DNA from: Spirochaetia bacterium | Lineage (GTDB): Bacteria; Spirochaetota; Spirochaetia; SZUA-6; Bin103 | Assembly: GCA_965208575.1 (NCBI GenBank) | Contig: CBDBOV010000001.1 | Span: 288,001-352,000 of the forward strand | DNA: 64,000 nt | Direction of reading: 5' to 3' | Shown here: one piece after another, positions 1,939 to 22,822 of the stretch | Position numbering within the stretch: the first letter of the stretch is position 1 | Layout of the letters: every line of letters starts with the position of its first letter | Translations under genes and position numbers: made by a program | Notes under the pieces: model-generated | The model's database searches: none | Seen by the model: only the letters and a program-made list of their open reading frames with translations | Told to the model about the DNA's origin: nothing

Positions 1939-2538
1939 TCAGCGCCGGCCATCGTGTACGGGCAGCAACGACTGAACATGTTGTACAACGCCCCGGAGCA
2001 CCGGCACGTTGGCGCCGGCGCGAACCAGCGTACACAAGCCGAGATAGAGGCCCAGCAACGCGCGCGCGGTCTGGACGAGGTCCACGTTGCCGGACACTTC
2101 GTTGACGCCGCGGGCCCGTTCGATGGCGTCCCGAAAGCGCACCTCCATGCCCTGGAGCAGACCTTGCAGCGCCTCGGCCACCTTTGGAGCGACGGTCCTC
2201 GACTCCAGGGCGGCGTTGACGAGGAGACACTGCTGACCGCGCTGCGACGAAACGTCCGCTTCGGCAGCCCATTGGAATGCGGCGATCAGCGCGGCGCGCG
2301 GTGAACCTTCACCGCGCAGCGCGTGCATACCAGGAGCACGACACTCGGTGCCGTAACGATCGAGGGTCTGCACGAACAAGGACTGCTTGTCGCCGAAGTT
2401 GGCGTACACGGCGCTGCGGGAAATCCCGATACGGCGGGCCAGCTCTGCCATCCCGGTGTCCTGGTAGCCGCGCTCGCCAAACAGCTCAATCGCGGTGTCG
2501 AGGGCGTCTTCTATGGCAAAGGATCTGTGTCTCGGCAT
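1939..2538 (-). CDS. TetR/AcrR family regulator (NemR/ComR-like), copy 1
   Basis: MPRHRSFAIEDALDTAIELFGERGY...GISRSAVYANFGDKQSLF HTH; CLLVNAALE C-terminal motif; start set at ATG 2538. Confidence 0.92.
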   Translation of the reverse strand: MPRHRSFAIEDALDTAIELFGERGYQDTGMAELARRIGISRSAVYANFGDKQSLFVQTLDRYGTECRAPGMHALRGEGSPRAALIAAFQWAAEADVSSQRGQQCLLVNAALESRTVAPKVAEALQGLLQGMEVRFRDAIERARGVNEVSGNVDLVQTARALLGLYLGLCTLVRAGANVPVLRGVVQHVQSLLPVHDGRR

Positions 2539-2680: not shown

Positions 2681-2751
2681 GGATTTAATGTGTATGATCG
2701 CGCTATATTATGTCCTTATTGTGGATCAATCGACAGCAAGGGGAGGGTCTG

Positions 2752-5088
2752 ATGAAAAGTACAGATGAACTCACGAGGGAGATCGAGGCGCTGCGGGTCC
2801 GCATCTCGAACTTGAGCGGTGCGGTGCTGCGCATCAGCGCAAGCCTCGACGTCGACACCGTCCTGAAGGAGATCGCGGAAAACGCCCGCGCCCTGACCGG
2901 TGCCCGCGGCGCCGTGATTACTGCCTTCGGCGACGCGGGGCATATCGACTACGTGACCTCCGGCCTCACCGCGGACGAGGAGCGCGAGTTGATCGAGTGG
3001 CCGGACGGTCTGCGGCTGTTCGAGCACCTGCGGAACCTTCCCTCGCCGCTGCGGGTGTCCGACCTGCGCGGCTACGTGCGCTCGCTCGGTTTCTCGCCGG
3101 AGGTCATCTTCGTGGACACCTTCCTGGCAACGTCGATTCGCCATCGGAACGTGCAAGCCGGCTCCTTTTTTCTCGGCGAGAAGGAAGCGGGACAGGAATT
3201 CACCAAGGAGGACGAGGAGGTGCTGGCAATGTTCGCGGCGCAGGCGGCGACGGCGATCACGAACGCCCGCACCCACCGTGCCGAGCAGCGCGTGCGGGCC
3301 GACCTGGAGGCGCTGATCAACACCTCGCCGGTGGGGGTCGTGGTGATCGACGCCAGAACCGCCCGCCTGGTGTCGATCAACCGGGAGGCAAGGCGGATTG
3401 TGGCGGGGCTGCTCGATCCGGGCCAGACCGAGGAAGAACTGCTGCAGGTGTTGATCTTCCGGCTCGCCGACGGGCAGGAAGTCTCGCTCAACGATTTCCC
3501 GCTGGCGACCGTGCTCAGCAACGCCGCCGCGATTCGCGCCGAAGAGATGGTGCTGTCGGTGCGCGACGGGCGCAGTGTCACGGTGCTGATCAACGCCACG
3601 CCGATCAAGTTCGAGGGCGATGCGGTTCAGTCATTGGTCGTGACCATGCAGGACCTGGGGCCGCTGCAGGAGCTGGAGCGGCAGCGGGCGGAGTTCCTGG
3701 GGATGGTGAGCCATGAGCTGCGGGCTCCGTTGAGCTCCGTGAAGGGGCTGGCCGCCACCGTGCTCGGCAACGCGCGCGTCGCGGATCCGGCCGAGGTGCG
3801 CCAGTTCTTCCGGATCATCGAGCAGCAGGCCGATCACATGGACGGCCTGATCAGAGATCTGCTCGATGTTGGACGCATCGACACGGGCATGCTCTCGGTG
3901 GAGCCGGCACCGGTGGAGGTGGCGGCGCTTGTGGACCAGGCGCGGAGCACGTTCCTGAGCGGCGGTGCTCGGCACGTGCTGAACATCGACCTGCCGGCGG
4001 ATCTGCCGCCGGTGATGGCGGATGAGCAACGGATCGTACAAGTCCTGAACAACCTGTATTCCAACGCGGCTCAGCACTCGCCCGAGTCCTGCCCCATTCG
4101 GGTCGCGGCGGTGCACGATGGCGCCGAGGTAGCGATCTCGGTGTCCGACGAGGGTCGTGGCCTGACGCCGGAACGGCTGCGGCATCTGTTCCGCAAGCAC
4201 ACCGTCGTCGACGACGATGGAGGAGCGCGCAGACGGGGAGCCGGTCTGGGGCTGGCCATCTGCAAGGGGCTGGTCGAGGCTCACGGAGGCCGTATCCGGG
4301 GCGAGAGTCGTGGGCCGGACCTGGGAACGCGGTTTACCTTCACGCTTCCGATAGTCGACGAGGCCGGCGGTGGCGCCGCACCGCGGCGGTCGCGTCAGCC
4401 GGGCGATGGCCGCGAGCGTACCGGCATACTGGTCGTGGACGACGACCCGCTGACTCTGCACTACGTCCGGGACGCTCTCACCGCGGCCGGCTACGCGCCG
4501 GCGGTGACAGGAGATCCGCGAGAGGTGCTGCACCTGATCGAGACAAGAAGGCCGCAGTTGGTGGTGCTCGACCTGTTATTGCCTGGCATGGATGGCATCA
4601 AGTTGATGGAGTCCCTCCCCGAGCTGGCGGACATTCCGGTGATCTTTCTGTCCGCCTACGGGCGCGAGGAGACGATCGCGAGGGCACTGGAGGCGGGAGC
4701 CGCCGACTACATCGTCAAGCCATTCTCGCCGACGGAACTGACCGCGAGAGTCCGGGCGGCGCTGCGCAAGCGGTCCAAGCCGGACCCCTTCGCGGTGGCG
4801 GACCTGGCAATCGACTACGAGAAGCGCCACGTGACCGTGGGCGGCCAACCCGTGCGGCTGACCGTGACCGAGTACGAGCTGCTGCGATTGCTCTCGGTCA
4901 ACGCGGGACGGGTGTTGACCTACGAGTCACTGGTGCGGCAGATCTGGGGAGAGCGGGAGGATACGGAACCGGTGCGGACCTTCGTGAAGAAGCTGCGCGG
5001 CAAGCTCGGCGACAGCCCGGCAAACCCGACGTACATCTTCAACGAGCGTGGGGTTGGCTACCGCATGGCCGCACCGGGCGACGAGTAG
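2752..5088 (+). CDS. Soluble hybrid GAF-PAS-HisKA-HATPase-REC-OmpR/PhoB wHTH protein (HK1)
   Basis: GGGGAGG then ATG 2752. H-box SHELRAPL, N-box NNLYSNA, G1 DEGRG, G2 GAGLGL, REC VVDDD/LDLLLPGMDG/DYIVKPF, wHTH ending NERGVGYRM. No transmembrane segment seen. Confidence 0.92.
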   Translation: MKSTDELTREIEALRVRISNLSGAVLRISASLDVDTVLKEIAENARALTGARGAVITAFGDAGHIDYVTSGLTADEERELIEWPDGLRLFEHLRNLPSPLRVSDLRGYVRSLGFSPEVIFVDTFLATSIRHRNVQAGSFFLGEKEAGQEFTKEDEEVLAMFAAQAATAITNARTHRAEQRVRADLEALINTSPVGVVVIDARTARLVSINREARRIVAGLLDPGQTEEELLQVLIFRLADGQEVSLNDFPLATVLSNAAAIRAEEMVLSVRDGRSVTVLINATPIKFEGDAVQSLVVTMQDLGPLQELERQRAEFLGMVSHELRAPLSSVKGLAATVLGNARVADPAEVRQFFRIIEQQADHMDGLIRDLLDVGRIDTGMLSVEPAPVEVAALVDQARSTFLSGGARHVLNIDLPADLPPVMADEQRIVQVLNNLYSNAAQHSPESCPIRVAAVHDGAEVAISVSDEGRGLTPERLRHLFRKHTVVDDDGGARRRGAGLGLAICKGLVEAHGGRIRGESRGPDLGTRFTFTLPIVDEAGGGAAPRRSRQPGDGRERTGILVVDDDPLTLHYVRDALTAAGYAPAVTGDPREVLHLIETRRPQLVVLDLLLPGMDGIKLMESLPELADIPVIFLSAYGREETIARALEAGAADYIVKPFSPTELTARVRAALRKRSKPDPFAVADLAIDYEKRHVTVGGQPVRLTVTEYELLRLLSVNAGRVLTYESLVRQIWGEREDTEPVRTFVKKLRGKLGDSPANPTYIFNERGVGYRMAAPGDE

Positions 5089-5157: not shown

Positions 5158-5190
5158 AAAAATACTCCCGACAGGCCCAAAAAAACACTG
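5158..5190. promoter_or_regulatory. Degenerate AAAA(A/G)ACACTG box pair, 22-bp spacing
   Basis: AAAAATACTCC (5158-5168) and AAAAAACACTG (5180-5190), matching the perfect repeat at 10768-10789. Confidence 0.3.
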
Positions 5191-5241
5191 TCTGGCCACC
5201 ACAGGCCGTCTCGCCGTGCGGGACCGGCGCGCCTGACGCAA

Positions 5242-5874
5242 TCACTCCGAGGAGAGCTTGGGCGGGCGCGGGCTGATCGGTCCCGGGCCCCGACTTCGAC
5301 TCCCCCGAGGCGGCGGCAGCAACGCTTCGACCTGGCGCGCGGCGGCGCGCAGCACCGGCTCGCTCCGCATCAGCAGGTTTGTACCGAGGAACAGACTGAG
5401 CAGAGTCGAAGCCACCTGGGCAGCGTCGACGTTGCTGTCGATCTCGCCCCCCGCCATTCCGCGTTCGATCCCACGTCGAACGTTGTCCTCGAGAAACGCG
5501 AGTTCATCCCGGACCACGGCAGACACCTCCGCGTCATCCGGCACCAGCTCGAGTGCCGTCCTGATGAGCAGAACGATGCCGGGTGGCGTGGCGCCGCCGC
5601 CGTCTGAGAGTGTCGACTCGAACAGGTCGACGATCGCCTCGCGCGGCGCGGCGGCCGACTCCAGGTCCGGCATCCGGCAGGTCTGGGCGTCCCGGCGCAG
5701 GCCAGTCAGGAACAAGGCCCGCTTGTCACCGAACGTGGCATACAAGCTGCTCCGGCTGACCCCGACGTGCTCCGCGACATGGCGCATGTGCGTGGATCCA
5801 TAGCCGCGTGTCCGGAATACCTCCATCGCCCTGGTCAGTGCTTTCTCGGGATCGAATGTCTTTGTTCTCGGCAT
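5242..5874 (-). CDS. TetR/AcrR family regulator, copy 2 (paralogue of copy 1)
   Basis: MPRTKTFDPEKALTRAMEVFRTRGY...GVSRSSLYATFGDKRALF; start ATG 5874. Confidence 0.92.
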   Translation of the reverse strand: MPRTKTFDPEKALTRAMEVFRTRGYGSTHMRHVAEHVGVSRSSLYATFGDKRALFLTGLRRDAQTCRMPDLESAAAPREAIVDLFESTLSDGGGATPPGIVLLIRTALELVPDDAEVSAVVRDELAFLEDNVRRGIERGMAGGEIDSNVDAAQVASTLLSLFLGTNLLMRSEPVLRAAARQVEALLPPPRGSRSRGPGPISPRPPKLSSE

Positions 5875-6066
5875 GCTCTCTCTCACGGTCGAAGCAGTAG
5901 AAGTCCGCAAATCATAGGCGAGGATCGTGAACACAGTGTGCATTATTGTGATATAATGGTGGCGAATCTGTGGATCTTTGGGCTGATGCCTCGTACTGAG
6001 ATGGATCGACATCGCCAGCGCGGAGCGGAGCGGTCGCAGCGTTCATCCGAGGGTACCGGAGACGGG

Positions 6067-7932
6067 ATGATGGAGGGCAGAGAACAACTCAGCTTGCAGA
6101 ACAGAGCGCCGCGGGGCCGTGGCTCGCGCCTGAGCCGGGCTGACCTGGAGGCCCTGATCGATACCTCGCCGATGGGAGTCGTGGTGCTCGATGCCGGGAC
6201 CGGCCATCCGGTGTCCTGCAACCAGGAAGCGAGGCGGATCGTATCGGGTTTGCTCGATCGCGGGCAGACCGTGGAAGGGCTGTTGCCGGCACTGACGTGC
6301 CGGTTCGCCGACGGCAAGGAGGTAGCGCTCGACCAGTTCCCGCGGGCGGTGGTTCTGAACAGCGCCGCCGCGGTGGGCGCCGAAGAGATCGTGCTCTCGG
6401 CACGCAACGGACGGAGCGTCAGGACACTGGTCAACGCGACGCCGATCAAGACCGAGGACGGCACGGTCCAGTCGGTGGTGGTGACGATGCAGGACCTTGA
6501 GCCACTGGACGAGTTGGAGCGCCGGCGGGCGGAGTTCCTGGAGATGGTGAGCCACGAGTTGCGGGCGCCGCTGAGTTCGATCAAGGGCCTGACCGCCACC
6601 GTGCTCGGCAACTCGGGGATCGTAGACCCGGCCGAGGTGCGGCAGTTCTTCCGAATCATCGAACAGCAGGCGGATGACATGGACGGCCTCATCAGAGACC
6701 TGCTCGATGCCGGACGCATCGAAACCGGCACGCTGTCGGTGGCACCGAGACTCGTTGACGTTGCCGGGCTGGTGGACCATGCGAGGCGGACGTTCCTCAG
6801 CAGCGGTGCCCGGCACATCCTGGCGATCGACCTGGCGCCGGACCTGCCGCGCGTGATGGCCGATGAGGCGCGCATCGCGCAAGTTCTGAACAACCTGTTC
6901 TCCTACGTGGCCGGCAACTCCTCGCAGTCCTCGCCCATTCGGGTCACGGCGCTGCAGGAAGGAGCTGAGCTGGCGGTCTCGGTAACGGCCGACAGCGCGG
7001 GCGAGGCGGCCGACCGGTTGCCGCACCTGTTCCGGAAACACGCCGCGATTGGCGGCGTCGGGGGGGCGAGGGGCCGGGAGACCAACCTCGGCCTGGCTAT
7101 CTGCAAGGGACTGGTGGAGGCCCACGGCGGCCGCATCCGCGCCGAGAGCCTGGGGCCCGGCCAGGGGACGCGAATTACATTCACGCTGCCGGCGGTCGAA
7201 CACACCGGTGGACGGACCTCCCCGCGGCGTTCGGTTGCGGCTCGCGATGCGGAGCGTACGGGAGTACTCGTTGTCGACGACGACCCGCTGACGCTGCGCA
7301 TTGTGCGTCAAGCGCTGGTCAGCGCCGGCTTCGCTACGTCGGTGACCGGCGATCCGCGAGAGTTGCCGCACCTCATCAGCACCAGACAGCCGCAGTTGGT
7401 ATTGCTCGACCTGGTGTTTCCGAACGTCGACGGCATCGCGTTGATGGAGTCCGTCCCCGCGCTGGCCGAACTTCCGGTCATCTTTATTTCCGGCTATGGG
7501 CGGGACGAGACGATCGCCAGGGCACTGGAGGCGGGCGCGGTCGATTACATCGTCAAGCCGTTCTCGGCGACCGAGTTGACAGCGCGAGTCCGGGCCGCCC
7601 TGCGCAAGCGGACCAGACCCGCGCCCTTCCTGGTAGCGAATCTGGAGATCGACTACGAGCTGCGCCGAGTGACCGTCGCAGGCCGTACCGTGCGACTGAC
7701 CGTGACCGAGTACGAGCTGCTGCGCGTGCTCTCGGTCAACGCCGGGCGCGTATTGACCTACGACTCACTGCTGCGCCAGATCTGGGGAGAACGGGTGACC
7801 GCCGGTTCCGACCCGGTGCGTACGTTCGTCAAGAAGCTGCGCGGCAAGCTGGGCGATGATCCGGCATGCCCGACGTACATCTTCAACGAACGCGGGGTCG
7901 GCTACCGAATGGCGGTGCCGGCCAATCGATGA
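6067..7932 (+). CDS. Hybrid PAS-HisKA-(degenerate HATPase)-REC-wHTH protein (HK2), no GAF
   Basis: Close paralogue of HK1 from ADLEALI onward. H-box and REC Asp are intact; N/G1/G2 boxes are altered. Start uncertain (6001, 6067 or 6070). Confidence 0.88.
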   Translation: MMEGREQLSLQNRAPRGRGSRLSRADLEALIDTSPMGVVVLDAGTGHPVSCNQEARRIVSGLLDRGQTVEGLLPALTCRFADGKEVALDQFPRAVVLNSAAAVGAEEIVLSARNGRSVRTLVNATPIKTEDGTVQSVVVTMQDLEPLDELERRRAEFLEMVSHELRAPLSSIKGLTATVLGNSGIVDPAEVRQFFRIIEQQADDMDGLIRDLLDAGRIETGTLSVAPRLVDVAGLVDHARRTFLSSGARHILAIDLAPDLPRVMADEARIAQVLNNLFSYVAGNSSQSSPIRVTALQEGAELAVSVTADSAGEAADRLPHLFRKHAAIGGVGGARGRETNLGLAICKGLVEAHGGRIRAESLGPGQGTRITFTLPAVEHTGGRTSPRRSVAARDAERTGVLVVDDDPLTLRIVRQALVSAGFATSVTGDPRELPHLISTRQPQLVLLDLVFPNVDGIALMESVPALAELPVIFISGYGRDETIARALEAGAVDYIVKPFSATELTARVRAALRKRTRPAPFLVANLEIDYELRRVTVAGRTVRLTVTEYELLRVLSVNAGRVLTYDSLLRQIWGERVTAGSDPVRTFVKKLRGKLGDDPACPTYIFNERGVGYRMAVPANR

Positions 7933-8009
7933 GCCATGTCGACCCGAGGTGGCGGGCGCTTGCGCACCCATCATGCCGTTCGTGCTTGACGCGTCGAGCC
8001 GGGCCGTGA

Positions 8010-10382
8010 TCACCGCGGCCATAGCTCCGACGGCGGGGGCATGCGGTAACCGACGCCGCGTACGTTCAACACCCAGGTCGGTGTCGAGGCGTCGTCACCG
8101 AGCTTCGCCCGCAGCTTCTTCACGAAGTTGCGTACCAGGTTGACATCGCCCGTCTCGCGGTCGCCCCAAATCTGGCGCAGCAGAGTATCGTAGGTCACGA
8201 CCCGTCCCGCTCTGCGCGACAGCGCGCTCAGCAGCTCGTACTCGGTCGCGGTCAGCACCACCTCACGCTCGCCGACCGTTACCCGCCGCTGCTCGTAGTG
8301 AATGGCGAGTTCGCCGAGCGCGAACGGCTCAGGTTCGGCGTGCCTGCGCAGCGCCGCCCGCACTCGGGCCGTCAACTCGGTCGCCGAGAACGGCTTGACG
8401 ATGTAATCCGCGGCGCCGCACTCCAGAGCACGGGCGATGGTCTCGTCACGTCCGTACCCGGAGATGAAGACGACCGGCATATCGGCGAGTTCCGGTACGG
8501 TTTCCATCAGTTCGATGCCGTCGGTCCCCGGGAGCATCAAGTCGAGCAGCACAAGTTGAGGATGCTCGGTGCGGATGATGTGCGACAGTTCGGTGTGGTC
8601 GCCGGTCACGAGCGGCGAGTAGTGCGCGGCAGTGAGCGCGTCGCGCACGTAGCGCAGCGTCTGCGGGTCGTCATCCACCACCAGGATGCGACCGGGTTCG
8701 TACGCCGCCCGAGACCGCTCCGAGCGGCGCGGATCGCCCCCTGCCTGGCGGGCGTCGACGGCGCTGTCGGCCACCGGCACGGTGAACGTGAACCGTGCGC
8801 CTTGCCCGGCACCGTCGCTCTCGGCCCAGATTCGGCCCCCGTGCGCCTCCACCAGCCCCTTGCAGATGACCAGCCCGAGGCCGGCGCCCCCCTTGTCGCG
8901 TATCCCGCCGGTCTCGGCGCCGCCGGCATCCCGTTGGAACAGTCGCGGCAGCAGCTCATGCGGCACGCCGCGGCCTTCATCCGACACCGATATGGCGATG
9001 TCGAAGCTGCGGCGCCCCGCGCTGATCCGGATCGGCGAAGACTCGGGAGAGCACCTCGCGGCGTTCGACAGGAGGTTGTTCAGCACCTGCACGATGCGTC
9101 GCCGATCGGCCATGACCCGTGGCAGGTCAAGGGGCAGGTCGATCAGCACGTTGTGCCGGCCGCCGCCGCTCAGGAACGTGTTGCGCGCGCGGTCCACCAG
9201 GTCGGCCACCTCGGATGACTCGGGCGATACCGAGAGCGTGCCCGAGTCGATGCGGCCGGCGTCGAGCAAGTCGCCGATGAGGCCGCGCATGCGTTCCGCC
9301 TGGTCATGGATGATCCGGAAGTACTCGTGGCGTTCGGCCGGGTCGAGCTCCGGCGCCGCCTCCAACAAGATGTCAACCGAGCCCTTGATGGCGGTGAGCG
9401 GTGCCCGCAACTCGTGGCTTACCATCCCGAGGAACTCGGCGCGCAGCCGTTCCAGCTCATCGAGCGGGGCCAGATCCTGCATGGTGACCACCAGCGATTC
9501 GACCGCACCATCCTCGGACTGGATCGGCGTGCAGTTGACCAGGGTCCTGACGCTGCGCCCGTCCGGAATCGAGAGCACCACCTCCTCCGCGCGCACCGTC
9601 TCGGGGTTGCTGACGAGCTGCCCTGTCAGCGGGACTTCGGCAAGCGCGATTTCGCGGCCGTCCGCGCGCCGGCAGGTGACCAACTCGAGCAGCTCTTCGA
9701 GCGGACGCCCCGGCGAGCGCAGGCCCTCCACTATGCGCCGCGCCTCGCGATTCAACGAAATCGGGGCGCCGGTTGCGGCATTCAACACCACCACGCCGAT
9801 CGGCGAGGTTTCGACCAACGCTTCCAGGTCGGCCCGCGCGCGTTGCTCGTCGCGGTGGGTGCGAGCATTGGCGATCGCCGACGTTGCCAGCGAGGCGAAC
9901 ATCACGAGTACCCTCTCGTCCTCGGTCGTGAATTCCGGTGCGCCTTCCTTGCCGGCGAGAAACAGGTTGCCGACCGGCACGCCGCGGTGCAGCATCGGCG
10001 TTGCCTGGAACGTTTTCGAGTGCATCAGGTGCGGGGAGTACCCGAGCGAGCGAACGAACGCGGGCATGTCTGACAGGCGTATCGGCCCCGGCAGGCCACG
10101 GAGGTGCTCCCAGAGCTTGGGCCCGTCCGGCCAGGCCGCGAACTCGGCGTGCTCCTCGGCGGTGAAGCCGGAGCTGACGTACTCCTGCAGCTGTCCCCGG
10201 TCGTCGTTGGTAGTGATGACGCCGTAGCGGGCGCCGGTGAGTACTCGCGCGTTGTCGACGACCTCCTGCAGGACGGTGGTCACGTCGAGGGTCGCGCTGA
10301 TGCGCAGGATCGCGGAACTGAGCGTGGAGATACGCTCGCGAAGCGTATGTAGTTCTTGGCTTGGGTCCTTGGCTTGATGCAA
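8010..10382 (-). CDS. Hybrid GAF-PAS-HisKA-HATPase-REC-wHTH protein (HK3)
   Basis: AAGGAG RBS then TTG at 10382; SHELRAPL, NNLLSNA, DEGRG, GAGLGL, LDLMLPG and NVRGVGYRM motifs. Confidence 0.9.
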   Translation of the reverse strand: MHQAKDPSQELHTLRERISTLSSAILRISATLDVTTVLQEVVDNARVLTGARYGVITTNDDRGQLQEYVSSGFTAEEHAEFAAWPDGPKLWEHLRGLPGPIRLSDMPAFVRSLGYSPHLMHSKTFQATPMLHRGVPVGNLFLAGKEGAPEFTTEDERVLVMFASLATSAIANARTHRDEQRARADLEALVETSPIGVVVLNAATGAPISLNREARRIVEGLRSPGRPLEELLELVTCRRADGREIALAEVPLTGQLVSNPETVRAEEVVLSIPDGRSVRTLVNCTPIQSEDGAVESLVVTMQDLAPLDELERLRAEFLGMVSHELRAPLTAIKGSVDILLEAAPELDPAERHEYFRIIHDQAERMRGLIGDLLDAGRIDSGTLSVSPESSEVADLVDRARNTFLSGGGRHNVLIDLPLDLPRVMADRRRIVQVLNNLLSNAARCSPESSPIRISAGRRSFDIAISVSDEGRGVPHELLPRLFQRDAGGAETGGIRDKGGAGLGLVICKGLVEAHGGRIWAESDGAGQGARFTFTVPVADSAVDARQAGGDPRRSERSRAAYEPGRILVVDDDPQTLRYVRDALTAAHYSPLVTGDHTELSHIIRTEHPQLVLLDLMLPGTDGIELMETVPELADMPVVFISGYGRDETIARALECGAADYIVKPFSATELTARVRAALRRHAEPEPFALGELAIHYEQRRVTVGEREVVLTATEYELLSALSRRAGRVVTYDTLLRQIWGDRETGDVNLVRNFVKKLRAKLGDDASTPTWVLNVRGVGYRMPPPSELWPR

Positions 10383-10767
10383 GTAGTCTCTCCTTCGGGC
10401 CTCGACCCGAGCACGCTCGGGCCTTGCACGTTTACGGAAAAAATAGCTGCCGCGGTGAAAGCGGATATACGTGAAGGCTACTATCAATCCCCGATAGATG
10501 CTACCACGGAGTCACGAGCAGCCACGAGCAGCATCGACGGCTGCGTGCGGGCGCCGTCCATCGAGGCCGCTGCGACCGTGGAACGACGTACCCGAGATCG
10601 GCGAGTCGGTGCGCATGGCACGGGTGCGCCCAAAGGGGGACGCCGCCCACCAGGTCGCGGGCACGCCCCACCGGCGCGGCGCTCACGGCCCGGGGTGGCC
10701 GCGGCAGAGCCATGCCCGGCGTCCGCGTTCTGACGCCGCGCCGGCGACCGCATGCGCCTCGCACTCA

Positions 10768-10789
10768 AAAAGACACTGAAAAGACACTG
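10768..10789. promoter_or_regulatory. Perfect 11-bp tandem direct repeat AAAAGACACTG x2, candidate OmpR/PhoB-type binding site
   Basis: Read directly in the divergent HK3/GNAT intergenic region; the 11-bp period is typical of wHTH response-regulator boxes. Confidence 0.45.
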
Positions 10790-11162
10790 CCGGGCTTCGC
10801 TCGTCCATGTTCTGGTCACTAAAGAAGCTACAGCGCCGCCGCGGAGGCGCCGATGATGAAAGAAGGGCGGGCGCGCATGCCGCGACATGCAGCGAAACTG
10901 ACCGGGGAGCTATCCGATCCCACAACGCGGCGCGCGCCCGCCCCATTTCTCGCCGGAGCATCCGCCGTCGGGCCCGAGCCGGTTGCCATCGGGAGCGGGA
11001 CAGGCCACCGGTCGAAACCGGGCGGCCCGCGGCATGGATGGTGGGAGCCGCCTCGGCTACGCGCCGCCGCGCTCGTCGCCCGGTCACGCGGGCAGGACGT
11101 GAACGTGGACCTGCGCATCGCGCGCTGCCGCTCTGTTGTTCATGTTGGCACGAGCCCGTACC

Positions 11163-12329
11163 ATGCAGGTTACCGTGAGCGCAGCGTGCACGACCTCGAA
11201 CAGTGCCATTACCGTGCGCCCGGCTCGCTCGGCGGCCGACCGGAGGCGCTTCATCCGCTTTCCGTGGAGGGTGTACCGCGACATCGATGCCTGGGTGCCG
11301 CCGCTGATCAGCGACTTCAAGAAGAAGCTGGACACCGTGCGCAACCCGTTCTACGAGCACGCCGAGATCGAGCTGTTCCTGGCGTGGCGCAACGGCGCTC
11401 CGGCGGGCACGGTGGCGGCGATCATCGACTACCACTACAACAACTTTCACGACGAGCGCACCGGGTTCTTCGGGTTCTTCGAGGCGGTGAACGACGACGC
11501 GGTGGCGGGGGCGCTGATCGACGCGGCGGCGGAGTGGGTGGCAGCGCGCGGCATGGAGCGGCTGCGCGGCCCCGTCAACCCGTCGACCGCGGAGTCGATG
11601 GGCATCCTGCTGGACGCCTACGACCGGCCGCCCGCCATCATGATGGCCTACAACCCGCCCTACTACCCGCGCCTGCTGGAGAGTGCCGGGCTGAGCAAGG
11701 CCAAGGACATGGTGGCGCTGTACATGGCGGAGGCCCAGACGCCGGTGGCGCCGAGGGTGGCCCGCGTGGCGCAACTGGTGCGCCGCCGTCACAACGTGAC
11801 CATCCGCAGCGCGGACCTCAAGCAGATTGACCGCGAGATGGCGCTGGTCAAGCTGATCTACAACGACGCCTGGACGAAGAACTGGGGGTTCGTGCCGTTC
11901 ACCGACGCCGAGATCGACTACGCCGCCGACGACCTGAAGATGGTGCTGGATCCTGACCTGGCGTTCTTCGCCTTCGTGGACGGCGAGCCGGCCGGTTTCT
12001 CGCTGGCGGTGCCCGACTTCAACCAGGTGCTGCGGCGCATGAACGGGCGGTTGTTTCCAGCCGGCGTGTTCAAGGTGCTCTGGTACAAGCGCCGGATCGA
12101 CCTGCTGCGGGTGGTGCTGGCCGGGGTGCGCCACCGGTATCGCAACCTGGGTCTGGATGCGGTGTTCTACTACGAGACCTACACGCGCGGCACCGCCAAG
12201 GGGTTCAACCAGGGCGAGTTCTCGTGGGTGCTGGAGGACAATGTCGCAATGCGCACCACGCTGGAGAAGATGGGTGCGCGCGTCTACAAGCGCTATCGCA
12301 TGTACGACAGGCCGGTGCGCAGATCGTGA
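11163..12329 (+). CDS. GNAT-fold N-acetyltransferase (YghO-like)
   Basis: RRFIRFPWRVY...WVPPL...FGFFEA...RGPVNPS...YNPPYY...SWVLEDN...YKRYRMY pattern. Confidence 0.8.
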   Translation: MQVTVSAACTTSNSAITVRPARSAADRRRFIRFPWRVYRDIDAWVPPLISDFKKKLDTVRNPFYEHAEIELFLAWRNGAPAGTVAAIIDYHYNNFHDERTGFFGFFEAVNDDAVAGALIDAAAEWVAARGMERLRGPVNPSTAESMGILLDAYDRPPAIMMAYNPPYYPRLLESAGLSKAKDMVALYMAEAQTPVAPRVARVAQLVRRRHNVTIRSADLKQIDREMALVKLIYNDAWTKNWGFVPFTDAEIDYAADDLKMVLDPDLAFFAFVDGEPAGFSLAVPDFNQVLRRMNGRLFPAGVFKVLWYKRRIDLLRVVLAGVRHRYRNLGLDAVFYYETYTRGTAKGFNQGEFSWVLEDNVAMRTTLEKMGARVYKRYRMYDRPVRRS

Positions 12330-12330
12330 A

Positions 12331-14733
12331 TCAGCGCGCCCTCGCCGGCGGCGCGGGTGCGGCGGCCACGGCGAGGCCGGCGCCGTCCACCCGCACCTCG
12401 ACCAGCAGGGTGCCGCGCACCGGGCCGTCGAGCAGCAGGTCGGTGACGCGGTCGGCCACCTCGCGCTGGAACAGGCGGGCGAGGGGGCGGGCGCCGTAGC
12501 GCGGCTCGTAGCCGCGTTCGCCGAGCCACTGCGCCGCCGCCTCGCTGAGCCGCACCTGGGCGCGGCTGCCGCGGCCCGCTGTGGAGCGGAGCTTGTCGTT
12601 GAGGCGGTCGAGGTGGGTCGCCACGATGCGCCGCACGCTGTCCGGCTGCAGCGGCTGGAAGGTGACGATGGCGTCGAGCCGGTTGATGAACTCGGGGCGG
12701 AACAGGCGCCTGGCGGCGGCCTCGGCGGCCGAGGTGGGCACCGGTGCCGTGCCGTCGTCGAAGCCGATGCCCCGCGCACTCATCTCCTCGCCGCCGGCGT
12801 TGGAGGTCATCGCCAGCACGGTGTGATGGAAATCGGCGCGCCGGCCGTTGCCGTCGGTCAGGGTGGCGTGGTCCATGATCTGCAGCAGCAGGTCGAACAG
12901 GTCGGGATGCGCCTTCTCGATCTCGTCGAGCAGCACCACGGAGTAGGGCGCCTTGATCACGGCGTCGGTGAGATAGCCGCCCTCGTCGTAGCCCACGTAG
13001 CCGGGCGGCGCGCCGATCAGCCGCGAGACGGTGTGCCTCTCCTGGTACTCGCTCATGTCGACGCGGATCAGCTCCACGCCGAGGATGTCGGCGAGCTGGC
13101 GGGTCAGCTCGGTCTTGCCGACGCCGGTGGGGCCGGTGAGCAGAAAGGCGCCGATCGGCTTGTCGGCGTCGCCGAGCCCGGCGCGGTTGCGCTTGATGGC
13201 GCGCGCGATGCGGTCGATCGCCTCGTCCTGGCCGAACACCCGCTGCCGCAGCCGCTCGGGTAGGTCGCGCAGCGCCTGCCGCCCGCCGCCCGACACCGCC
13301 GCCACCGGCCGCCCGCTCATGCCGGCCACCACCGCGGCGATCTCGGTGCGCGTGATGAGGTGGCGCCGGCCCGTTCGACCTGGTGGAGCGCCCGTGGACG
13401 ACGTGCCCCCGGTGTTGCCGGCGGATGTGCGGGCGCCAGGGGCGCCAGCCGTATCGGCACCGGCGCCGTCGGCGCCCGACTCCTCGTGCGCCGCGGCGCG
13501 CAGCTTGTGGCGCGAGCCGGCCTCGTCGATTACGTCGATCGCCTTGTCGGGCAGGCGCCGGTCGTGGATGTGCACCGCCGCCAGTTCGGCCGCGCTGCCG
13601 AGCGCCGCGTCGCTGTAGCGCACGCCGTGAAAGCTCTGGTAGCGCTCGCGCAGGCCGCGCAGGATCAGCACCGTGTCCGCCACCGACGGCTCGGCCACCA
13701 CGATCTTCTGAAAGCGCCGCGACAGCGCGTGGTCCTTCTCGAAGTGGCGGCGGTACTCCTCGTAGGTGGTGGAGCCGATACAGCGCAACTCGCCGCCGCC
13801 GAGCACCGGCTTGAGGATGTTGGAGGCGTCCATGGAGCCGCCGGAGGTGGCGCCGGCGCCGACGATGGTGTGGATTTCGTCGATGAACAGGATGGTGCCG
13901 GGTTGTTCGCGCAGGGCGCCGATCACCCCCTTGAGCCGCTCCTCGAAGTCACCGCGGAACTTGGTGCCGGCGAGCAGCGCCCCGAGGTCGAGGCTGACGA
14001 TGCGAGCGTCGCGGAACGCCGGCGGTACCTTGCGGTCGGCGATGTGCAGCGCGATTCCTTCCACGATGGCGGTCTTGCCGACGCCGGCGTCGCCGACCAG
14101 CACCGGGCTGTTCTTCTGCCGCCGGCCGAGAATCTGCAGGGCGCGTTCGATCTCCCGGCCGCGTCCGATCAGGGGGTCGATGGCGCCCGCGGCGGCGCGT
14201 TCGGTGAGGTCGGTGGTGTAGCGCTGCAGGAGCCCGGCCGCGGTGTCGCCCTTGGTCCCGGTGCGTTCGGGTGTGCCGCGGTCGCCGGCGTCCGCGCCGG
14301 CCATCTCCGGTCCGCCGTGCGAGATGACCTCCATCACGTCGACGCGCGAGATGCCCTGTTCCTGCAGGAAGAAGGCGGCGTGCGAGTCGGCCTCCAGCAG
14401 CAGCCCGGCCAGCACGTCTCCGGCGCCGGCCTGCTCGCGCTCGGCGCCGCGCGCCTGCAGCACCACGCGCTGCAGCATGCGGCGCACGGTGCGGGTCATG
14501 TCCAGCTCGTAGGGGGTCTGACCCGGCACCGACTGCAGATGGTCGCGAAAGAACGCCTCCAGCCGCGTGCGCAACTCGTGGGCCTCGCCGCCGCAGGCGG
14601 CGATAATCGCCGCGCAGTCGTCGTTGTGCAGCAGCGCGTACAACAGGTGTTCCAGGGTCACGAACTCGTGCCGGCGAATCTCGGCCTCCCGAAACGCCGC
14701 CGCCACCGACAGTTCAACGTCGCGGCTGAGCAC
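12331..14733 (-). CDS. clpA: ATP-dependent Clp protease ATP-binding subunit ClpA
   Basis: Clp N-domain; two AAA+ modules (GDAGVGKT, GPTGVGKT; FIDEIH, LLDEIEK); no ClpB coiled-coil; start overlaps the clpS stop. Confidence 0.93.
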   Translation of the reverse strand: MLSRDVELSVAAAFREAEIRRHEFVTLEHLLYALLHNDDCAAIIAACGGEAHELRTRLEAFFRDHLQSVPGQTPYELDMTRTVRRMLQRVVLQARGAEREQAGAGDVLAGLLLEADSHAAFFLQEQGISRVDVMEVISHGGPEMAGADAGDRGTPERTGTKGDTAAGLLQRYTTDLTERAAAGAIDPLIGRGREIERALQILGRRQKNSPVLVGDAGVGKTAIVEGIALHIADRKVPPAFRDARIVSLDLGALLAGTKFRGDFEERLKGVIGALREQPGTILFIDEIHTIVGAGATSGGSMDASNILKPVLGGGELRCIGSTTYEEYRRHFEKDHALSRRFQKIVVAEPSVADTVLILRGLRERYQSFHGVRYSDAALGSAAELAAVHIHDRRLPDKAIDVIDEAGSRHKLRAAAHEESGADGAGADTAGAPGARTSAGNTGGTSSTGAPPGRTGRRHLITRTEIAAVVAGMSGRPVAAVSGGGRQALRDLPERLRQRVFGQDEAIDRIARAIKRNRAGLGDADKPIGAFLLTGPTGVGKTELTRQLADILGVELIRVDMSEYQERHTVSRLIGAPPGYVGYDEGGYLTDAVIKAPYSVVLLDEIEKAHPDLFDLLLQIMDHATLTDGNGRRADFHHTVLAMTSNAGGEEMSARGIGFDDGTAPVPTSAAEAAARRLFRPEFINRLDAIVTFQPLQPDSVRRIVATHLDRLNDKLRSTAGRGSRAQVRLSEAAAQWLGERGYEPRYGARPLARLFQREVADRVTDLLLDGPVRGTLLVEVRVDGAGLAVAAAPAPPARAR

Positions 14734-15056
14734 TACGGCGCCTCCTGAATGGAGCAGCGCAGCGGAAACTCGTTCTTGCGCGCCAGTCGATGCACCTGTT
14801 CCACCTTCATCTCCGCCACCTCGCGGGTATACACGCCGCAGCGCCCGGCGCCGTGGCGATGGATGGCCAGCATGATGCGGGTCGCCTCCGAGGGAGGCTT
14901 GTAGAAGATACTCTCCAGGATGCTGACCACGAAGTCCATGGTGGTGTAGTGGTCGTTGTGCATCAGCACCTCGTAGCGCGGCGGCTCGCGCACCTCCTCG
15001 TCGCTGTCGGGAAGGTCGGCCAGGTCGGGCGCCGGCGGCGTGGCCTGCTCCGCCAT
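14733..15056 (-). CDS. clpS: Clp protease adaptor ClpS
   Basis: EPPRYEVLMHNDHYTTMDFVV...MLAIHRHG...CGVYTREVAEMKV...FPLRC; start ATG 15056 (15113 possible). Confidence 0.95.
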   Translation of the reverse strand: MAEQATPPAPDLADLPDSDEEVREPPRYEVLMHNDHYTTMDFVVSILESIFYKPPSEATRIMLAIHRHGAGRCGVYTREVAEMKVEQVHRLARKNEFPLRCSIQEAP

Positions 15057-15109
15057 GAACGCGTGCAGCGCCGAGCGGGCTGCAAACAGGTGCCGTCCAT
15101 GCGCGTTCG

Positions 15110-22688: not shown

Positions 22689-22822
22689 GACACGGGGGTA
22701 TCCAGACACCACCTCGTGTCGTGGAGGGGCCTTACAGCGCGGCTGAGGCGACGTTTTCTCATCGCTGACCGCCCATTCTCCGATTATCGACCGTCAGACC
22801 CGCCTGAGAGGGTCATTTTGCC
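22689..22822. repeat. Hairpin-rich direct repeat, copy A'
   Basis: GACACGGGGGTATCCAGACACCACCTCGTGTCGTGGAGGGGCCTTACAGCGCGGCTGAGGCGAC...; lies immediately 3' of the rve transposase gene. Confidence 0.8.

What the first reader, a model, noticed from the sequence alone, without database searches (positions are those of the whole stretch)
6067..7932. Middle paralogue looks like a pseudokinase: ATP-binding boxes lost, phospho-His and phospho-Asp kept
Seen: relative to HK1/HK3, the N-box NNLYSNA/NNLLSNA becomes NNLFSYV, the G1 box SDEGRG becomes TADSAG and the G2 box GAGLGL becomes ETNLGL, and the GAF domain is absent. The H-box (SHELRAPL), receiver (VVDDD, LLDLVFP, DYIVKPF) and wHTH are intact in an uninterrupted ORF. 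Established: the N-box Asn and G1 Asp are required for Mg-ATP binding in GHKL kinases, and DivL is a known functional pseudokinase. Inference: damage concentrated in the ATP-binding boxes suggests selection for a kinase-dead DNA-binding partner that is phosphorylated in trans or acts as a dominant-negative or phosphatase subunit with HK1/HK3.
Basis: partly seen in the sequence, partly recalled or inferred. Interest (0 to 1): 0.7.

Follow-up and report, generated by a model that had tools for sequence, protein, structure and literature searches.

The report
Conserved kinase-dead copy of fused sensor-regulator
One of three neighbouring copies of a single-protein sensor kinase and transcription factor has lost exactly the residues that hold ATP while keeping everything else, and related bacteria keep the same crippled copy intact, so it is a maintained pseudokinase and not a dying gene.

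Summary
HK2 (6067-7932, +, 621 aa) is PAS-HisKA-HATPase_c-REC-OmpR-type wHTH. It is 69% identical to HK1 (2710-5088) and lacks HK1's GAF domain. Of 143 columns that are at least 98% invariant in 134 other family members, HK2 changes six. Four are the ATP-site residues: the N-box Mg-Asn to Tyr280, the G1 Asp to Ala308, a G1 Gly to Ser310 and a G2 Gly to Asn340. The other two are conservative changes in REC.

This is not private decay. HK2 sits in an 18-row clade, sister to the HK1 clade, in which 17 of 18 rows carry at least one such lesion. None of 217 other family members lacks the Mg-Asn or the G1 Asp. The His, the receiver Asp and the receiver Lys are kept in 18 of 18.

dN/dS between HK2 and its syntenic orthologue is 0.10 (DHp), 0.15 (REC), 0.19 (wHTH) and 0.55 (CA). 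CA gives 0.29 and 0.34 in the HK1 and HK3 pairs.

So HK2 is a selectively maintained pseudokinase with relaxed constraint on ATP binding. How it is phosphorylated is inferred only. HK1 is the likeliest donor, because the two share DHp and REC interface residues and an identical DNA-recognition helix. A phosphatase role is disfavoured. This is a new variant of a known kind.

The parts
6067..7932 (+). HK2: 621-aa PAS-HisKA-HATPase_c-REC-wHTH protein with no GAF domain. This is the pseudokinase.
   Evidence: The start is supported.
6145..6498 (+). PAS domain of HK2 (residues 27-144).
   Evidence: Pfam PAS_9/PAS_8. 0 of 18 family-invariant columns changed. dN/dS 0.48 against G006.
6526..6729 (+). 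HisKA (DHp) domain. The H box SHELRAPL is at 6550-6573 and the phospho-acceptor His163 at 6553-6555.
   Evidence: Pfam 55.1 bits. His kept in 18 of 18 clade rows. 0 of 23 invariant columns changed. dN/dS 0.10. Coordinates.
6862..7194 (+). HATPase_c (CA) domain with the degenerate ATP site.
   Evidence: Pfam 56.4 bits over profile positions 2-109 of 111. 42 of 46 invariant columns kept. dN/dS 0.41-0.55.
6889..6909 (+). N box NNLFSYV. Tyr280 (6904-6906, TAC) replaces the Mg-coordinating Asn.
   Evidence: Aligned to the second Asn of the HK853 N box.
6985..7002 (+). G1 box TADSAG. Ala308 replaces the adenine-binding Asp, and Ser310 replaces the first Gly.
7078..7095 (+). G2 box ETNLGL. Asn340 replaces the middle Gly.
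7264..7593 (+). Receiver domain. Acceptor Asp448 (7408-7410) and Lys497 (7555-7557). Phe451 (three residues after the Asp) is a signature of the clade.
   Evidence: Pfam 87.2 bits. Asp and Lys kept in 18 of 18. The L-to-F change is present in 18 of 18 clade rows. dN/dS 0.15.
7681..7911 (+). OmpR/PhoB-type winged-helix DNA-binding domain. The recognition-helix segment is identical to HK1's.
   Evidence: Pfam Trans_reg_C 66.9 bits. 0 of 16 invariant columns changed. VRTFVKKLRGKLGD is identical in HK1 and HK2.
2710..5088 (+). HK1: the intact GAF-PAS-HisKA-HATPase_c-REC-wHTH paralogue, 69% identical to HK2. It is the proposed phosphodonor or partner.
8010..10487 (-). HK3: an intact paralogue, 60% identical to HK2 and convergent with it (77 bp between the stops). 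Its exact start is uncertain.
   Evidence: The convergent HK2-HK3 pairing is kept in G006 and G007.
5242..5874 (-). TetR-family regulator (TetR2), divergent from HK2. The ORF is open to 6012, but the likely start is the MPRTK Met.
   Evidence: Pfam TetR_N and TetR_C_13. Start inferred from the alignment with TetR1. A 77% identical orthologue sits in the same place in G006.
5928..5957 (+). Promoter-like site TGAACA-18-TATAAT, with TG before the -10 hexamer, 110 nt upstream of the HK2 start.
   Evidence: 1 found; 0.4 expected in shuffles. Both hexamers are nearly kept in G006. Consensus match only.
1939..2538 (-). TetR-family regulator (TetR1), divergent from HK1 and 36% identical to TetR2.

Best explanation
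HK2 is a selectively maintained pseudo-histidine kinase. It descends from a duplicate of an HK1-type soluble, single-polypeptide two-component protein (GAF-PAS-DHp-CA-REC-wHTH).

Shown:
- Its ATP pocket has lost the Mg-Asn, the adenine-binding Asp and two box glycines.
- The rest of the protein, including the phospho-His, the phospho-Asp and the DNA-reading helix, is under purifying selection.
- The lesions belong to a whole clade spanning two genera, where they accumulated stepwise. The N-box Asn-to-Tyr change came first. Loss of a sensor domain and further G1 and G2 changes followed.

Inferred, with my odds:
- HK2 cannot autophosphorylate (about 0.85).
- It still works as a phosphorylation-dependent transcription factor. 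Its phosphoryl group comes from an active paralogue, most likely HK1, either within HK1/HK2 heterodimers or by transfer from the HK1 His to the HK2 Asp (about 0.4).
- It acts on the same promoters as HK1, without GAF input and under its own promoter next to a TetR-type regulator.
For: 1. Lesions fall only where ATP binds. 4 of 46 family-invariant CA columns are changed, and all four are box residues. The counts elsewhere are 0 of 57 in PAS, DHp and wHTH together, and 2 of 40 in REC. The box assignment is checked against HK853. The roles of the N-box Asn and the G1 Asp are as described in bioRxiv 10.1101/2022.12.12.520123 (passages read).

2. The feature belongs to a clade.
- A tree of 95 rows, built with the box columns left out, gives an 18-row HK2 clade (SH-aLRT 99) sister to a 34-row HK1 clade (99).
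- 17 of 18 HK2-clade rows have at least one lesion.
- Outside the clade, the Mg-Asn and the G1 Asp are kept in 134 of 134 rows, and in 83 of 83 further members from 80 loci of at least 9 phyla.
- Parsimony needs at least 2 + 3 + 5 + 2 = 12 changes at the four positions, all inside the clade.

3. Intact ORFs. There are no stops in the HK2-type genes of G000, G006, G007 and G021. His, Asp and Lys are kept in 18 of 18 rows.

4. Purifying selection (Nei-Gojobori).
- HK2 own against G006: DHp 0.10, REC 0.15, wHTH 0.19, PAS 0.48, CA 0.55.
- Own against G007: CA 0.41 (bootstrap 0.26-0.66).
- Own against G021: CA 0.48 (0.29-0.78).
- CA in the HK1 pair is 0.29, and in the HK3 pair 0.34.

5. Real decay in this family looks different. 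The own genome holds two internally deleted remnants. G003 has an HK1-like gene split by a 4.1-kb insert.

6. Partner inference.
- HK1-TetR2-HK2-HK3 synteny is kept in G006.
- The HK1 and HK2 clades alone share the DHp helix-1 'KGL' and the REC 'DDDPL', where other paralogues have 'KGS' and 'DDDPQ/G/H'.
- HK2 is 83% identical to HK1 in DHp, against 61-68% to the other paralogues of this genome.
- The recognition-helix segment is identical in HK1 and HK2.
- Every genome with an HK2-type gene also has at least two intact paralogues (4 of 4).

7. Precedent. A CA-defective ChrS works through cross-phosphorylation by its paralogue HrrS and heterodimerises with it (PMC9491836, abstract read).
Against: - No biochemical or expression data exist. 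No RNA run was available, and that says nothing either way.
- DNA-level tests rest on four genomes. The own-G006 bootstrap interval for CA (0.31-1.03) touches 1.
- Protein databases hold called ORFs, so broken copies would be under-represented among the 14 metagenome rows.
- Several rows are near-duplicates: P0013 equals L014, P0011 equals P0012 in the tree columns, and P0057 and P0005 are close to L016 and L013.
- G007 and G021 have an HK2-type gene but no HK1-clade paralogue. HK1 therefore cannot be the universal donor.
- The single-lesion proteins of G007 and G021 may keep some activity. VanS kinases with a non-canonical G1 box still work, with weak ATP binding (10.1101/2022.12.12.520123).
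- P0010, a member of the clade, has all boxes intact.
- HK1-HK2 co-location in three further metagenome contigs is inferred only from equal contig lengths.
- The reading of the DHp and REC residues as specificity residues is recalled knowledge (Skerker/Laub work) and was not tested here.
Confidence: 0.7

Rival explanations
1. HK2 is a young pseudogene drifting neutrally. The intact frame is luck.
For: The ATP boxes are destroyed and the GAF domain is gone. The family does leave dead remnants in this genome and in G003. CA dN/dS is raised to 0.55, and its interval reaches 1.03.
Against: Intact ORFs in four genomes of two genera and in 14 metagenome proteins. dN/dS is 0.10-0.19 in DHp, REC and wHTH, with binomial p from 1.6e-3 to 9e-7. 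0 of 57 invariant columns are changed in PAS, DHp and wHTH, and 42 of 46 are kept in CA. The upstream region, with its promoter-like site, is conserved in G006.
Confidence: 0.04
2. HK2 is still a working kinase that binds nucleotide in a non-canonical way.
For: The CA domain is still under some constraint (dN/dS 0.41-0.55), and His163 is kept in 18 of 18 rows. Kinases with deviant G1 boxes exist, such as VanS with Asn for Asp and weak ATP binding (10.1101/2022.12.12.520123). Tyr at the N-box position is invariant in its 12-row subclade.
Against: Four lesions coexist: the Mg-Asn, the adenine Asp (to Ala, with no hydrogen-bonding side chain), a G1 Gly and a G2 Gly. Within the clade the G1 and G2 positions take many different residues, which is the mark of lost constraint. 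None of 217 other family members tolerates loss of the Asn or the Asp.
Confidence: 0.07
3. HK2 is kinase-dead and maintained, but it acts negatively or independently of paralogue phosphorylation. It could be a phosphate sink or a poison subunit for HK1. It could compete with HK1 at shared DNA sites. It could also be a regulator charged by small phosphodonors and switched mainly at the level of transcription by TetR2.
For: The structural facts are the same as for the best explanation. The recognition helix is identical to HK1's. HK2 has its own promoter-like site next to a conserved divergent TetR gene. G007 and G021 have no HK1-type donor. The clade-wide L-to-F change three residues after the acceptor Asp could retune receiver chemistry.
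Against: Strict retention of His163, and the very low dN/dS of DHp (0.10), are more than simple DNA competition requires. No sequence evidence tells a sink from a relay.
Confidence: 0.17
4. HK2 is a dedicated phosphatase subunit for the receivers of HK1 or HK3.
For: A kinase-off HisKA protein that keeps DHp and CA could in principle be locked in a phosphatase state.
Against: The residue four after the His is Ala in HK2, in 17 of 18 clade rows and in 123 of 134 other rows. The HisKA phosphatase motif is E/DxxT/N (quoted in PMC12963549). HK2 carries its own receiver and DNA-binding domain under strong constraint, which a pure phosphatase would not need.
Confidence: 0.02

Closest known systems
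ChrS pseudokinase variant with its paralogue HrrS (Corynebacterium glutamicum; PMC9491836, abstract read)
   Same: One of two paralogous two-component kinases loses CA function. Signalling continues through cross-phosphorylation by the active paralogue, and the two form heterodimers.
   Different: The ChrS variant arose by a frameshift in a laboratory evolution experiment. Its regulator ChrA is a separate protein. HK2 is a natural lineage conserved across genera, with point lesions in a retained CA fold, and its receiver and DNA-binding domains are fused on.
DivL of Caulobacter (PMC4211667 and PMC5361649, search listing only; structure 4q20 is among the PDB hits)
   Same: A conserved histidine-kinase-like protein that signals without kinase activity.
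   Different: As I recall it, DivL has Tyr in place of the phospho-His and works by binding DivK~P. HK2 keeps the His and loses the ATP site. It also carries its own receiver and wHTH output.
PsmA of Streptomyces (PMC12963549, passages read)
   Same: A hybrid (HK plus REC) pseudokinase conserved in a taxon. Key ATP-motif residues are not conserved, and it lacks the E/DxxT/N phosphatase motif.
   Different: PsmA lacks the His, its receiver Asp is dispensable, and it acts as a polarisome component. HK2 keeps His, Asp and Lys under strong constraint and ends in a DNA-binding domain.
Bacteroides hybrid two-component systems (PMC11253607, listing and start of abstract)
   Same: Kinase, receiver and DNA-binding regulator lie in one polypeptide, with intramolecular phosphotransfer.
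   Different: According to that abstract, HTCSs have a membrane sensor kinase. As I recall, their output domain is AraC-type. The family here has no hydrophobic segment of transmembrane type, has GAF and PAS sensors, and has an OmpR-type wHTH. No kinase-dead HTCS paralogue was looked for.
HK853 of Thermotoga maritima (2c2a/3dge; best solved match to the DHp-CA part, E 3.7e-25)
   Same: HisKA-type DHp plus a Bergerat-fold CA domain, alignable over 234 residues.
   Different: HK853 has the full N, G1 and G2 boxes. HK2 has Tyr, Ala, Ser and Asn at four of those positions.

Membership tests
HisKA-type histidine kinase, by descent and fold | HisKA (DHp) domain with an H-box His | tested here: met
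   PF00512 at 55.1 bits against a cut-off of 26.9. SHELRAPL with His163.
HisKA-type histidine kinase, by descent and fold | HATPase_c (Bergerat) domain | tested here: met
   PF02518 at 56.4 bits against a cut-off of 26.4, over profile positions 2-109 of 111. Aligns to HK853 over 234 residues.
Catalytically competent histidine kinase | N box NxxxNA with the Mg-coordinating second Asn | tested here: not met
   Tyr280 is at that position.
Catalytically competent histidine kinase | G1 box DxGxG with the adenine-binding Asp | tested here: not met
   ADSAG: Asp to Ala308, and the first Gly to Ser310.
Catalytically competent histidine kinase | G2 box GxGLGL | tested here: not met
   ETNLGL: the middle Gly is Asn340. 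The first Gly is variable in the family anyway.
Catalytically competent histidine kinase | ATP binding and autophosphorylation | not testable with these tools
   Needs purified protein.
OmpR/PhoB-type response regulator | Receiver domain with the acidic pocket, acceptor Asp and conserved Lys | tested here: met
   PF00072 at 87.2 bits. DDD at 403-405, Asp448 and Lys497. Best PDB matches are MtrA and KdpE.
OmpR/PhoB-type response regulator | Trans_reg_C winged-helix domain | tested here: met
   PF00486 at 66.9 bits against a cut-off of 26.2.
Pseudo-histidine kinases (a functional class, not a sequence family) | Kinase fold kept, with residues essential for catalysis lost | tested here: met
Pseudo-histidine kinases (a functional class, not a sequence family) | Conserved across species under purifying selection | tested here: met
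   An 18-row clade with intact ORFs in four genomes, and dN/dS of 0.10-0.55 by domain.
Pseudo-histidine kinases (a functional class, not a sequence family) | No autokinase activity | not testable with these tools
   Inferred from sequence only.
HisKA bifunctional kinase/phosphatase | E/DxxT/N motif directly after the His | tested here: not met
   HELRA: Ala167 stands at the T/N position. Motif as quoted in PMC12963549.
Bacteroides-type HTCS | Membrane-anchored periplasmic sensor and AraC-type HTH | tested here: not met
   No Pfam AraC/HTH_18 hit. The output domain is Trans_reg_C. The maximum Kyte-Doolittle 19-residue mean is 1.68, and it lies inside REC.

The most novel reading that the evidence does not exclude
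HK2 and HK1 form a natural, obligately asymmetric signalling pair. The GAF-sensing, ATP-using HK1 charges a GAF-less, ATP-blind protomer or dimer that reads the same DNA sites. One kinase would then drive two differently gated transcription-factor outputs, with HK2 dosed by a TetR-type repressor. The clade would record, step by step, how a duplicated one-polypeptide two-component protein is turned from a kinase into a pure phospho-acceptor. The order is N-box hit, then sensor loss, then free decay of G1 and G2. This happens inside a gene family that has spread across at least 9 bacterial phyla at about 60% identity.
Probability: 0.25. Interest if true: 0.65.

Novelty: new variant of a known kind. 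Interest (0 to 1): 0.45.

Why it matters
Bacterial pseudo-histidine kinases are known from a few cases: DivL, PsmA, RocA and a lab-evolved ChrS. Those read here have lost the phospho-His or the whole CA function. In this case the ATP pocket alone is gone. The His, the Asp and a fused DNA-binding output stay under strong constraint.

Relatives also preserve intermediate stages. One has all boxes intact. Some have only the N-box hit with both sensor domains present. Others have a sensor domain lost. Others have G1 and G2 decayed. That makes the clade a natural series for asking how paralogous two-component proteins divide labour after duplication, and whether trans-phosphorylation between paralogues is used in nature and not only tolerated.

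There is a practical point as well. Such genes are annotated as ordinary 'response regulator' or 'histidine kinase', so kinase counts in these genomes are overestimates.

Tried and rejected
- GAF remnant upstream of HK2: none found. The gap holds a TetR gene.
- Longer HK2 starting at GTG 5767 or ATG 5956: rejected. It would overlap TetR2, it is not conserved in G006, and it does not fit the 620-621-aa relatives.
- RNA evidence: no RNA holder listed.
- More orthologue DNA, first attempt. A degenerate DNA pattern for the Tyr-type N box scanned metagenome contigs and returned 116 stretches. None encodes a relative of HK2; the only tblastn hit was an unrelated two-component gene at 31% identity.
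- More orthologue DNA, second attempt. The genome-contig scan returned only 56-65% paralogue-level relatives from other phyla, with no HK2-type gene and no TetR2 neighbour.
- TetR as a general partner of the family: not found. A TetR2 orthologue occurs only in G006, and no TetR1 orthologue was found anywhere else among 123 loci at E <= 1e-8.
- Recent gene conversion between HK1 and HK2: no sign. dS is 0.51-0.73 in every domain.
- Complex prediction with HK1: not sent. Two DHp domains that are 83% identical would pass by likeness to solved homodimers, and my odds would not move.
- Structure prediction: not used. The fold is already supported by Pfam, HK853 and 42 of 46 invariant columns.
- Operator search. 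An inverted-repeat scan of 5950-6120 gave only a GC palindrome inside the coding start. A small CACA-N-TGTG palindrome between the promoter hexamers was seen by eye and was not tested.
- Earlier notes of this scan: three look-ups, nothing shown.
- Literature. Searches found no description of this GAF-PAS-HK-REC-wHTH family or of a kinase-dead member. That covers only the held library and those terms.
- One search failed on a two-letter term and was repeated.
Full report
WHAT IS THERE

The window is G+C-rich. It carries three paralogous genes for soluble one-polypeptide two-component proteins.
- HK1: 2710-5088 (+), 792 aa.
- HK2: 6067-7932 (+), 621 aa.
- HK3: 8010-10487 (-), convergent with HK2.

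Pfam gives GAF-PAS-HisKA-HATPase_c-Response_reg-Trans_reg_C for HK1 and HK3. HK2 has the same domains without GAF. Its HATPase_c score drops to 56.4 bits, against 83.7 and 90.5 in HK1 and HK3. HK2 is 69% identical to HK1 and 60% to HK3. None of the three has a transmembrane-type hydrophobic segment.

Between HK1 and HK2 lies a TetR-family gene on the minus strand (5242-5874; the ORF is open to 6012). A second TetR gene, 36% identical to the first, lies divergently upstream of HK1 at 1939-2538.

THE OBSERVATION

- N box: NNLYSNA and NNLLSNA become NNLFSYV.
- G1: SDEGRG becomes TADSAG.
- G2: GAGLGL becomes ETNLGL.
- SHELRAPL, VVDDD, LLDLVFP and DYIVKPF are intact.

I checked the box assignment against a solved kinase. 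In the HMMER alignment to HK853 (2c2a/3dge, E 3.7e-25), HK2 Tyr280 pairs with the second Asn of the N box. Ala308 and Ser310 pair with the D and first G of DxGxG. Asn340 pairs with the middle G of GxGLGL. A VanS structure preprint describes what these residues do: the second N-box Asn coordinates the Mg of Mg-ATP, and the G1 Asp bonds the adenine amine (10.1101/2022.12.12.520123, passages read).

The start at 6067 holds.
- GGAG lies 5 nt upstream.
- Relatives are 620-621 aa.
- The G006 orthologue has only 23 open codons upstream.
- The upstream in-frame ATG is not conserved, and the two intergenic regions differ by indels.

There is no GAF remnant. DNA similarity to HK1 starts at about 6136.

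IS THE DAMAGE REALLY CONCENTRATED?

I aligned 152 family proteins. These were 120 from the protein search and 32 read from related genomes. I then took the columns that are at least 98% invariant among the 134 rows outside HK2's own clade. HK2 changes:
- 0 of 18 in PAS
- 0 of 23 in DHp
- 4 of 46 in CA
- 2 of 40 in REC
- 0 of 16 in wHTH

The four CA changes are exactly the Mg-Asn, the G1 Asp, the first G1 Gly and the middle G2 Gly. The two REC changes are Tyr to Phe and Leu to Phe. The Leu-to-Phe change lies three residues after the acceptor Asp and is present in all 18 rows of the clade.

IS IT PRIVATE DECAY OR A LINEAGE?

The family is present in 10 of 41 related genomes searched, all of them in one family of two genera. 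That family holds 24 species genomes in all.

A maximum-likelihood tree of 95 rows was built with the N, G1 and G2 columns removed (IQ-TREE quick, LG+G4, SH-aLRT support). It places HK2 in an 18-row clade (99), sister to a 34-row clade (99) that contains HK1.

Inside the 18-row clade:
- The Mg-Asn is Tyr in 12 rows, Ser in 1 and Asn in 5.
- The G1 Asp is lost in 9 rows.
- The first G1 Gly is lost in 6 rows.
- The middle G2 Gly is lost in 8 rows.
- 17 of 18 rows have at least one lesion. Only P0010 is intact.
- The His, the receiver Asp and the receiver Lys are kept in 18 of 18.

Outside the clade the Asn and the Asp are kept in 134 of 134 rows. They are also kept in 83 of 83 further ORFs read from 80 loci of MAGs labelled as at least 9 phyla. 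Parsimony needs at least 2, 3, 5 and 2 changes at the four positions, all within the clade.

Some rows are near-duplicates (P0013 equals L014, P0011 equals P0012 in the tree columns, and P0057 and P0005 are close to L016 and L013). About 14 rows are distinct.

THE ORDER OF EVENTS

The tree and the domain scans suggest a sequence.
- P0010 (782 aa, with GAF) has all boxes.
- Its GAF-less sisters (the G007 group) have G1 Asp to Gly.
- P0009 (779 aa, GAF plus PAS region) has only Asn to Tyr.
- The G021 pair has Asn to Tyr, and GAF is fused straight to DHp with the PAS region deleted.
- The nine GAF-less rows that include HK2 have Asn to Tyr plus assorted G1 and G2 lesions.

The Tyr is invariant in its 12 rows, whereas the G1 and G2 positions take many residues. 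That is what relaxed constraint after a first inactivating hit looks like. It is not selection for one particular dead sequence.

GAF loss is not strictly tied to kinase death. Two GAF-less rows with intact boxes occur elsewhere in the tree (P0017 and P0063), although they may be truncated gene calls.

SELECTION

DNA is available for four HK2-type genes. Nei-Gojobori dN/dS for HK2 against its syntenic G006 orthologue (dS about 0.2) is:
- PAS 0.48
- DHp 0.10
- CA 0.55 (bootstrap 0.31-1.03)
- REC 0.15
- wHTH 0.19

Against G007, CA is 0.41 (0.26-0.66). Against G021, CA is 0.48 (0.29-0.78). The same species pair gives CA 0.29 for HK1 and 0.34 for HK3.

So DHp, REC and wHTH are at least as constrained as in the intact paralogues. 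CA is relaxed but still below 1 in the deeper comparisons. It is kept as a folded module.

Neutral decay in this family looks different. The own genome has two internally deleted remnants. G003 has an HK1-like gene split by a 4.1-kb insert that carries an ORF with a Mu-transposase C-terminal domain.

CONTEXT AND LIKELY PARTNER

G006 keeps the whole arrangement of HK1-TetR2-HK2-HK3 plus the downstream genes. G007 keeps only the convergent HK2-HK3 pair. The G021 copy stands apart from the others.

The TetR2-HK2 intergenic region is 89% identical between the two genomes. It contains a promoter-like TGAACA-18-TATAAT at 5928-5957.

Within each genome HK2 is closest to HK1 in DHp, at 83% against 61-68% for the other paralogues. 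The HK1 and HK2 clades alone share 'KGL' in DHp helix 1 and 'DDDPL' at the start of REC helix 1. Other paralogues have 'KGS' and 'DDDPQ/G/H'. The recognition-helix segment VRTFVKKLRGKLGD is identical in HK1 and HK2.

From recalled work on kinase-regulator specificity (Skerker, Capra and Laub), these DHp and REC positions lie in the phosphotransfer interface. Shared residues would therefore permit HK1-to-HK2 transfer and heterodimerisation. This is inference, not a test.

Against a universal HK1 partner: G007 and G021 have no HK1-clade gene.

MECHANISM

Shown:
- ATP-site loss.
- Retention and constraint of the His, the Asp, the Lys and the DNA-binding domain.
- Conservation across the clade.

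Inferred:
- HK2 cannot autophosphorylate (about 0.85).
- It is charged by an active paralogue, most likely HK1, and acts on HK1's promoters without GAF input and under its own promoter, possibly controlled by TetR2 (about 0.4).

Alternatives are a phosphate sink, a poison subunit, a DNA competitor, or charging by small phosphodonors.

A phosphatase role is unlikely. The position four residues after the His is Ala, not the T/N of the HisKA phosphatase motif (motif quoted in PMC12963549).

COMPARISON WITH KNOWN SYSTEMS

The closest functional precedent is the CA-defective ChrS of Corynebacterium glutamicum. It signals through cross-phosphorylation by its paralogue HrrS and heterodimerises with it (PMC9491836, abstract). 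That variant is a laboratory frameshift with a separate regulator.

DivL (listing only) and PsmA (passages) are conserved pseudokinases, but they have lost the His. In PsmA the receiver Asp is dispensable.

Bacteroides HTCSs share the one-polypeptide design but have a membrane sensor kinase (PMC11253607, listing).

HK2 therefore belongs by descent to HisKA/HATPase_c kinases and OmpR-type regulators. It fails the tests for a competent kinase. It is a new variant within the functional class of pseudo-histidine kinases.

Four literature searches found no description of this family or of a kinase-dead member. That covers only the held library and those terms.

VERDICT

A maintained pseudokinase is supported. 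The specific mode of action is not shown. The phosphatase option is disfavoured.
- Interest is moderate. This is a clean natural series of kinase-to-acceptor conversion in an uncultured lineage, within a class of proteins that is already known.

Noticed in passing
L040-L119; family of HK1 2710-5088, HK2 6067-7932 and HK3 8010-10487: The GAF-PAS-HK-REC-wHTH family occurs at 56-65% protein identity in MAGs labelled as many different phyla. Of 80 loci, 33 are Acidobacteriota, 17 Pseudomonadota, 15 Gemmatimonadota, 3 Binatota, 3 Nitrospirota, 2 Rhodothermota, 2 Latescibacterota, 1 Chloroflexota, 1 Spirochaetota and 3 unplaced. There are several copies per genome. Within the window's own order it was found only in one family (0 of 17 genomes of other families). 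This looks like wide horizontal spread. No tree against species phylogeny was made.
   Followed up: partly
L123 (G003:C5) 5164-6372 and 10531-11691: An HK1-like gene is split at about residue 390-394 by a ~4.1-kb insert. One ORF of the insert has a Mu-transposase C-terminal domain.
   Followed up: partly
L006 (G000:C4:781624-782031) and L007 (G000:C1:122715-123086): The own genome holds two internally deleted remnants of the family. One joins a PAS piece, a DHp piece and a wHTH within about 620 bp. The other joins an N-terminal piece and a PAS piece.
   Followed up: partly
window 1939-2538 (-) and 5242-5874 (-): Each of HK1 and HK2 has a divergent TetR-family gene upstream (TetR_N plus TetR_C_13), and the two are 36% identical. 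A TetR2 orthologue (77%) is at the same place in G006. No TetR1 orthologue was found there.
   Followed up: partly
window 5934-5942: A small palindrome, CACA-G-TGTG, sits between the promoter-like hexamers upstream of HK2. G006 keeps it as CACA-C-TGTG (seen by eye). It is a possible operator and was not tested against chance.
   Followed up: no
window 7417-7419 (HK2 Phe451): A Leu-to-Phe change three residues after the acceptor Asp is present in 18 of 18 HK2-clade rows, including the one with intact ATP boxes. That position is Leu in at least 98% of the 134 other rows, and Phe occurs in 4 of 83 members from other phyla. This clade signature in the receiver pre-dates the ATP-site lesions.
   Followed up: partly
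L122 (G021:C1) 7721-9682: The HK2-type gene of G021 has GAF joined directly to DHp, with the PAS region missing. It carries only the N-box Asn-to-Tyr lesion.
   Followed up: partly
window 20997-22670 (+) and 22813-24087 (-): Two mobile-element genes: a Transposase_29 family protein and an rve integrase-core protein.
   Followed up: no
window 12331-14733 (-) and 14733-15737 (-): A ClpA/ClpB-type double AAA+ ATPase with a Clp_N domain lies next to an ORF whose C-terminus is a ClpS adaptor domain. Further on lie a radical-SAM gene, a formyltransferase gene and a class-I tRNA synthetase gene. The ORFs at 10683-12779 and 12331-14733 overlap by about 450 bp, so at least one start is miscalled. These are ordinary housekeeping genes, and they are syntenic in G006.
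   Followed up: no
PDB entry 6azr: The best solved match is an HK853 variant whose H box reads SHELRAPL, the same as this family. Wild-type HK853 has Thr at that position. I did not read the paper behind the entry.
   Followed up: no
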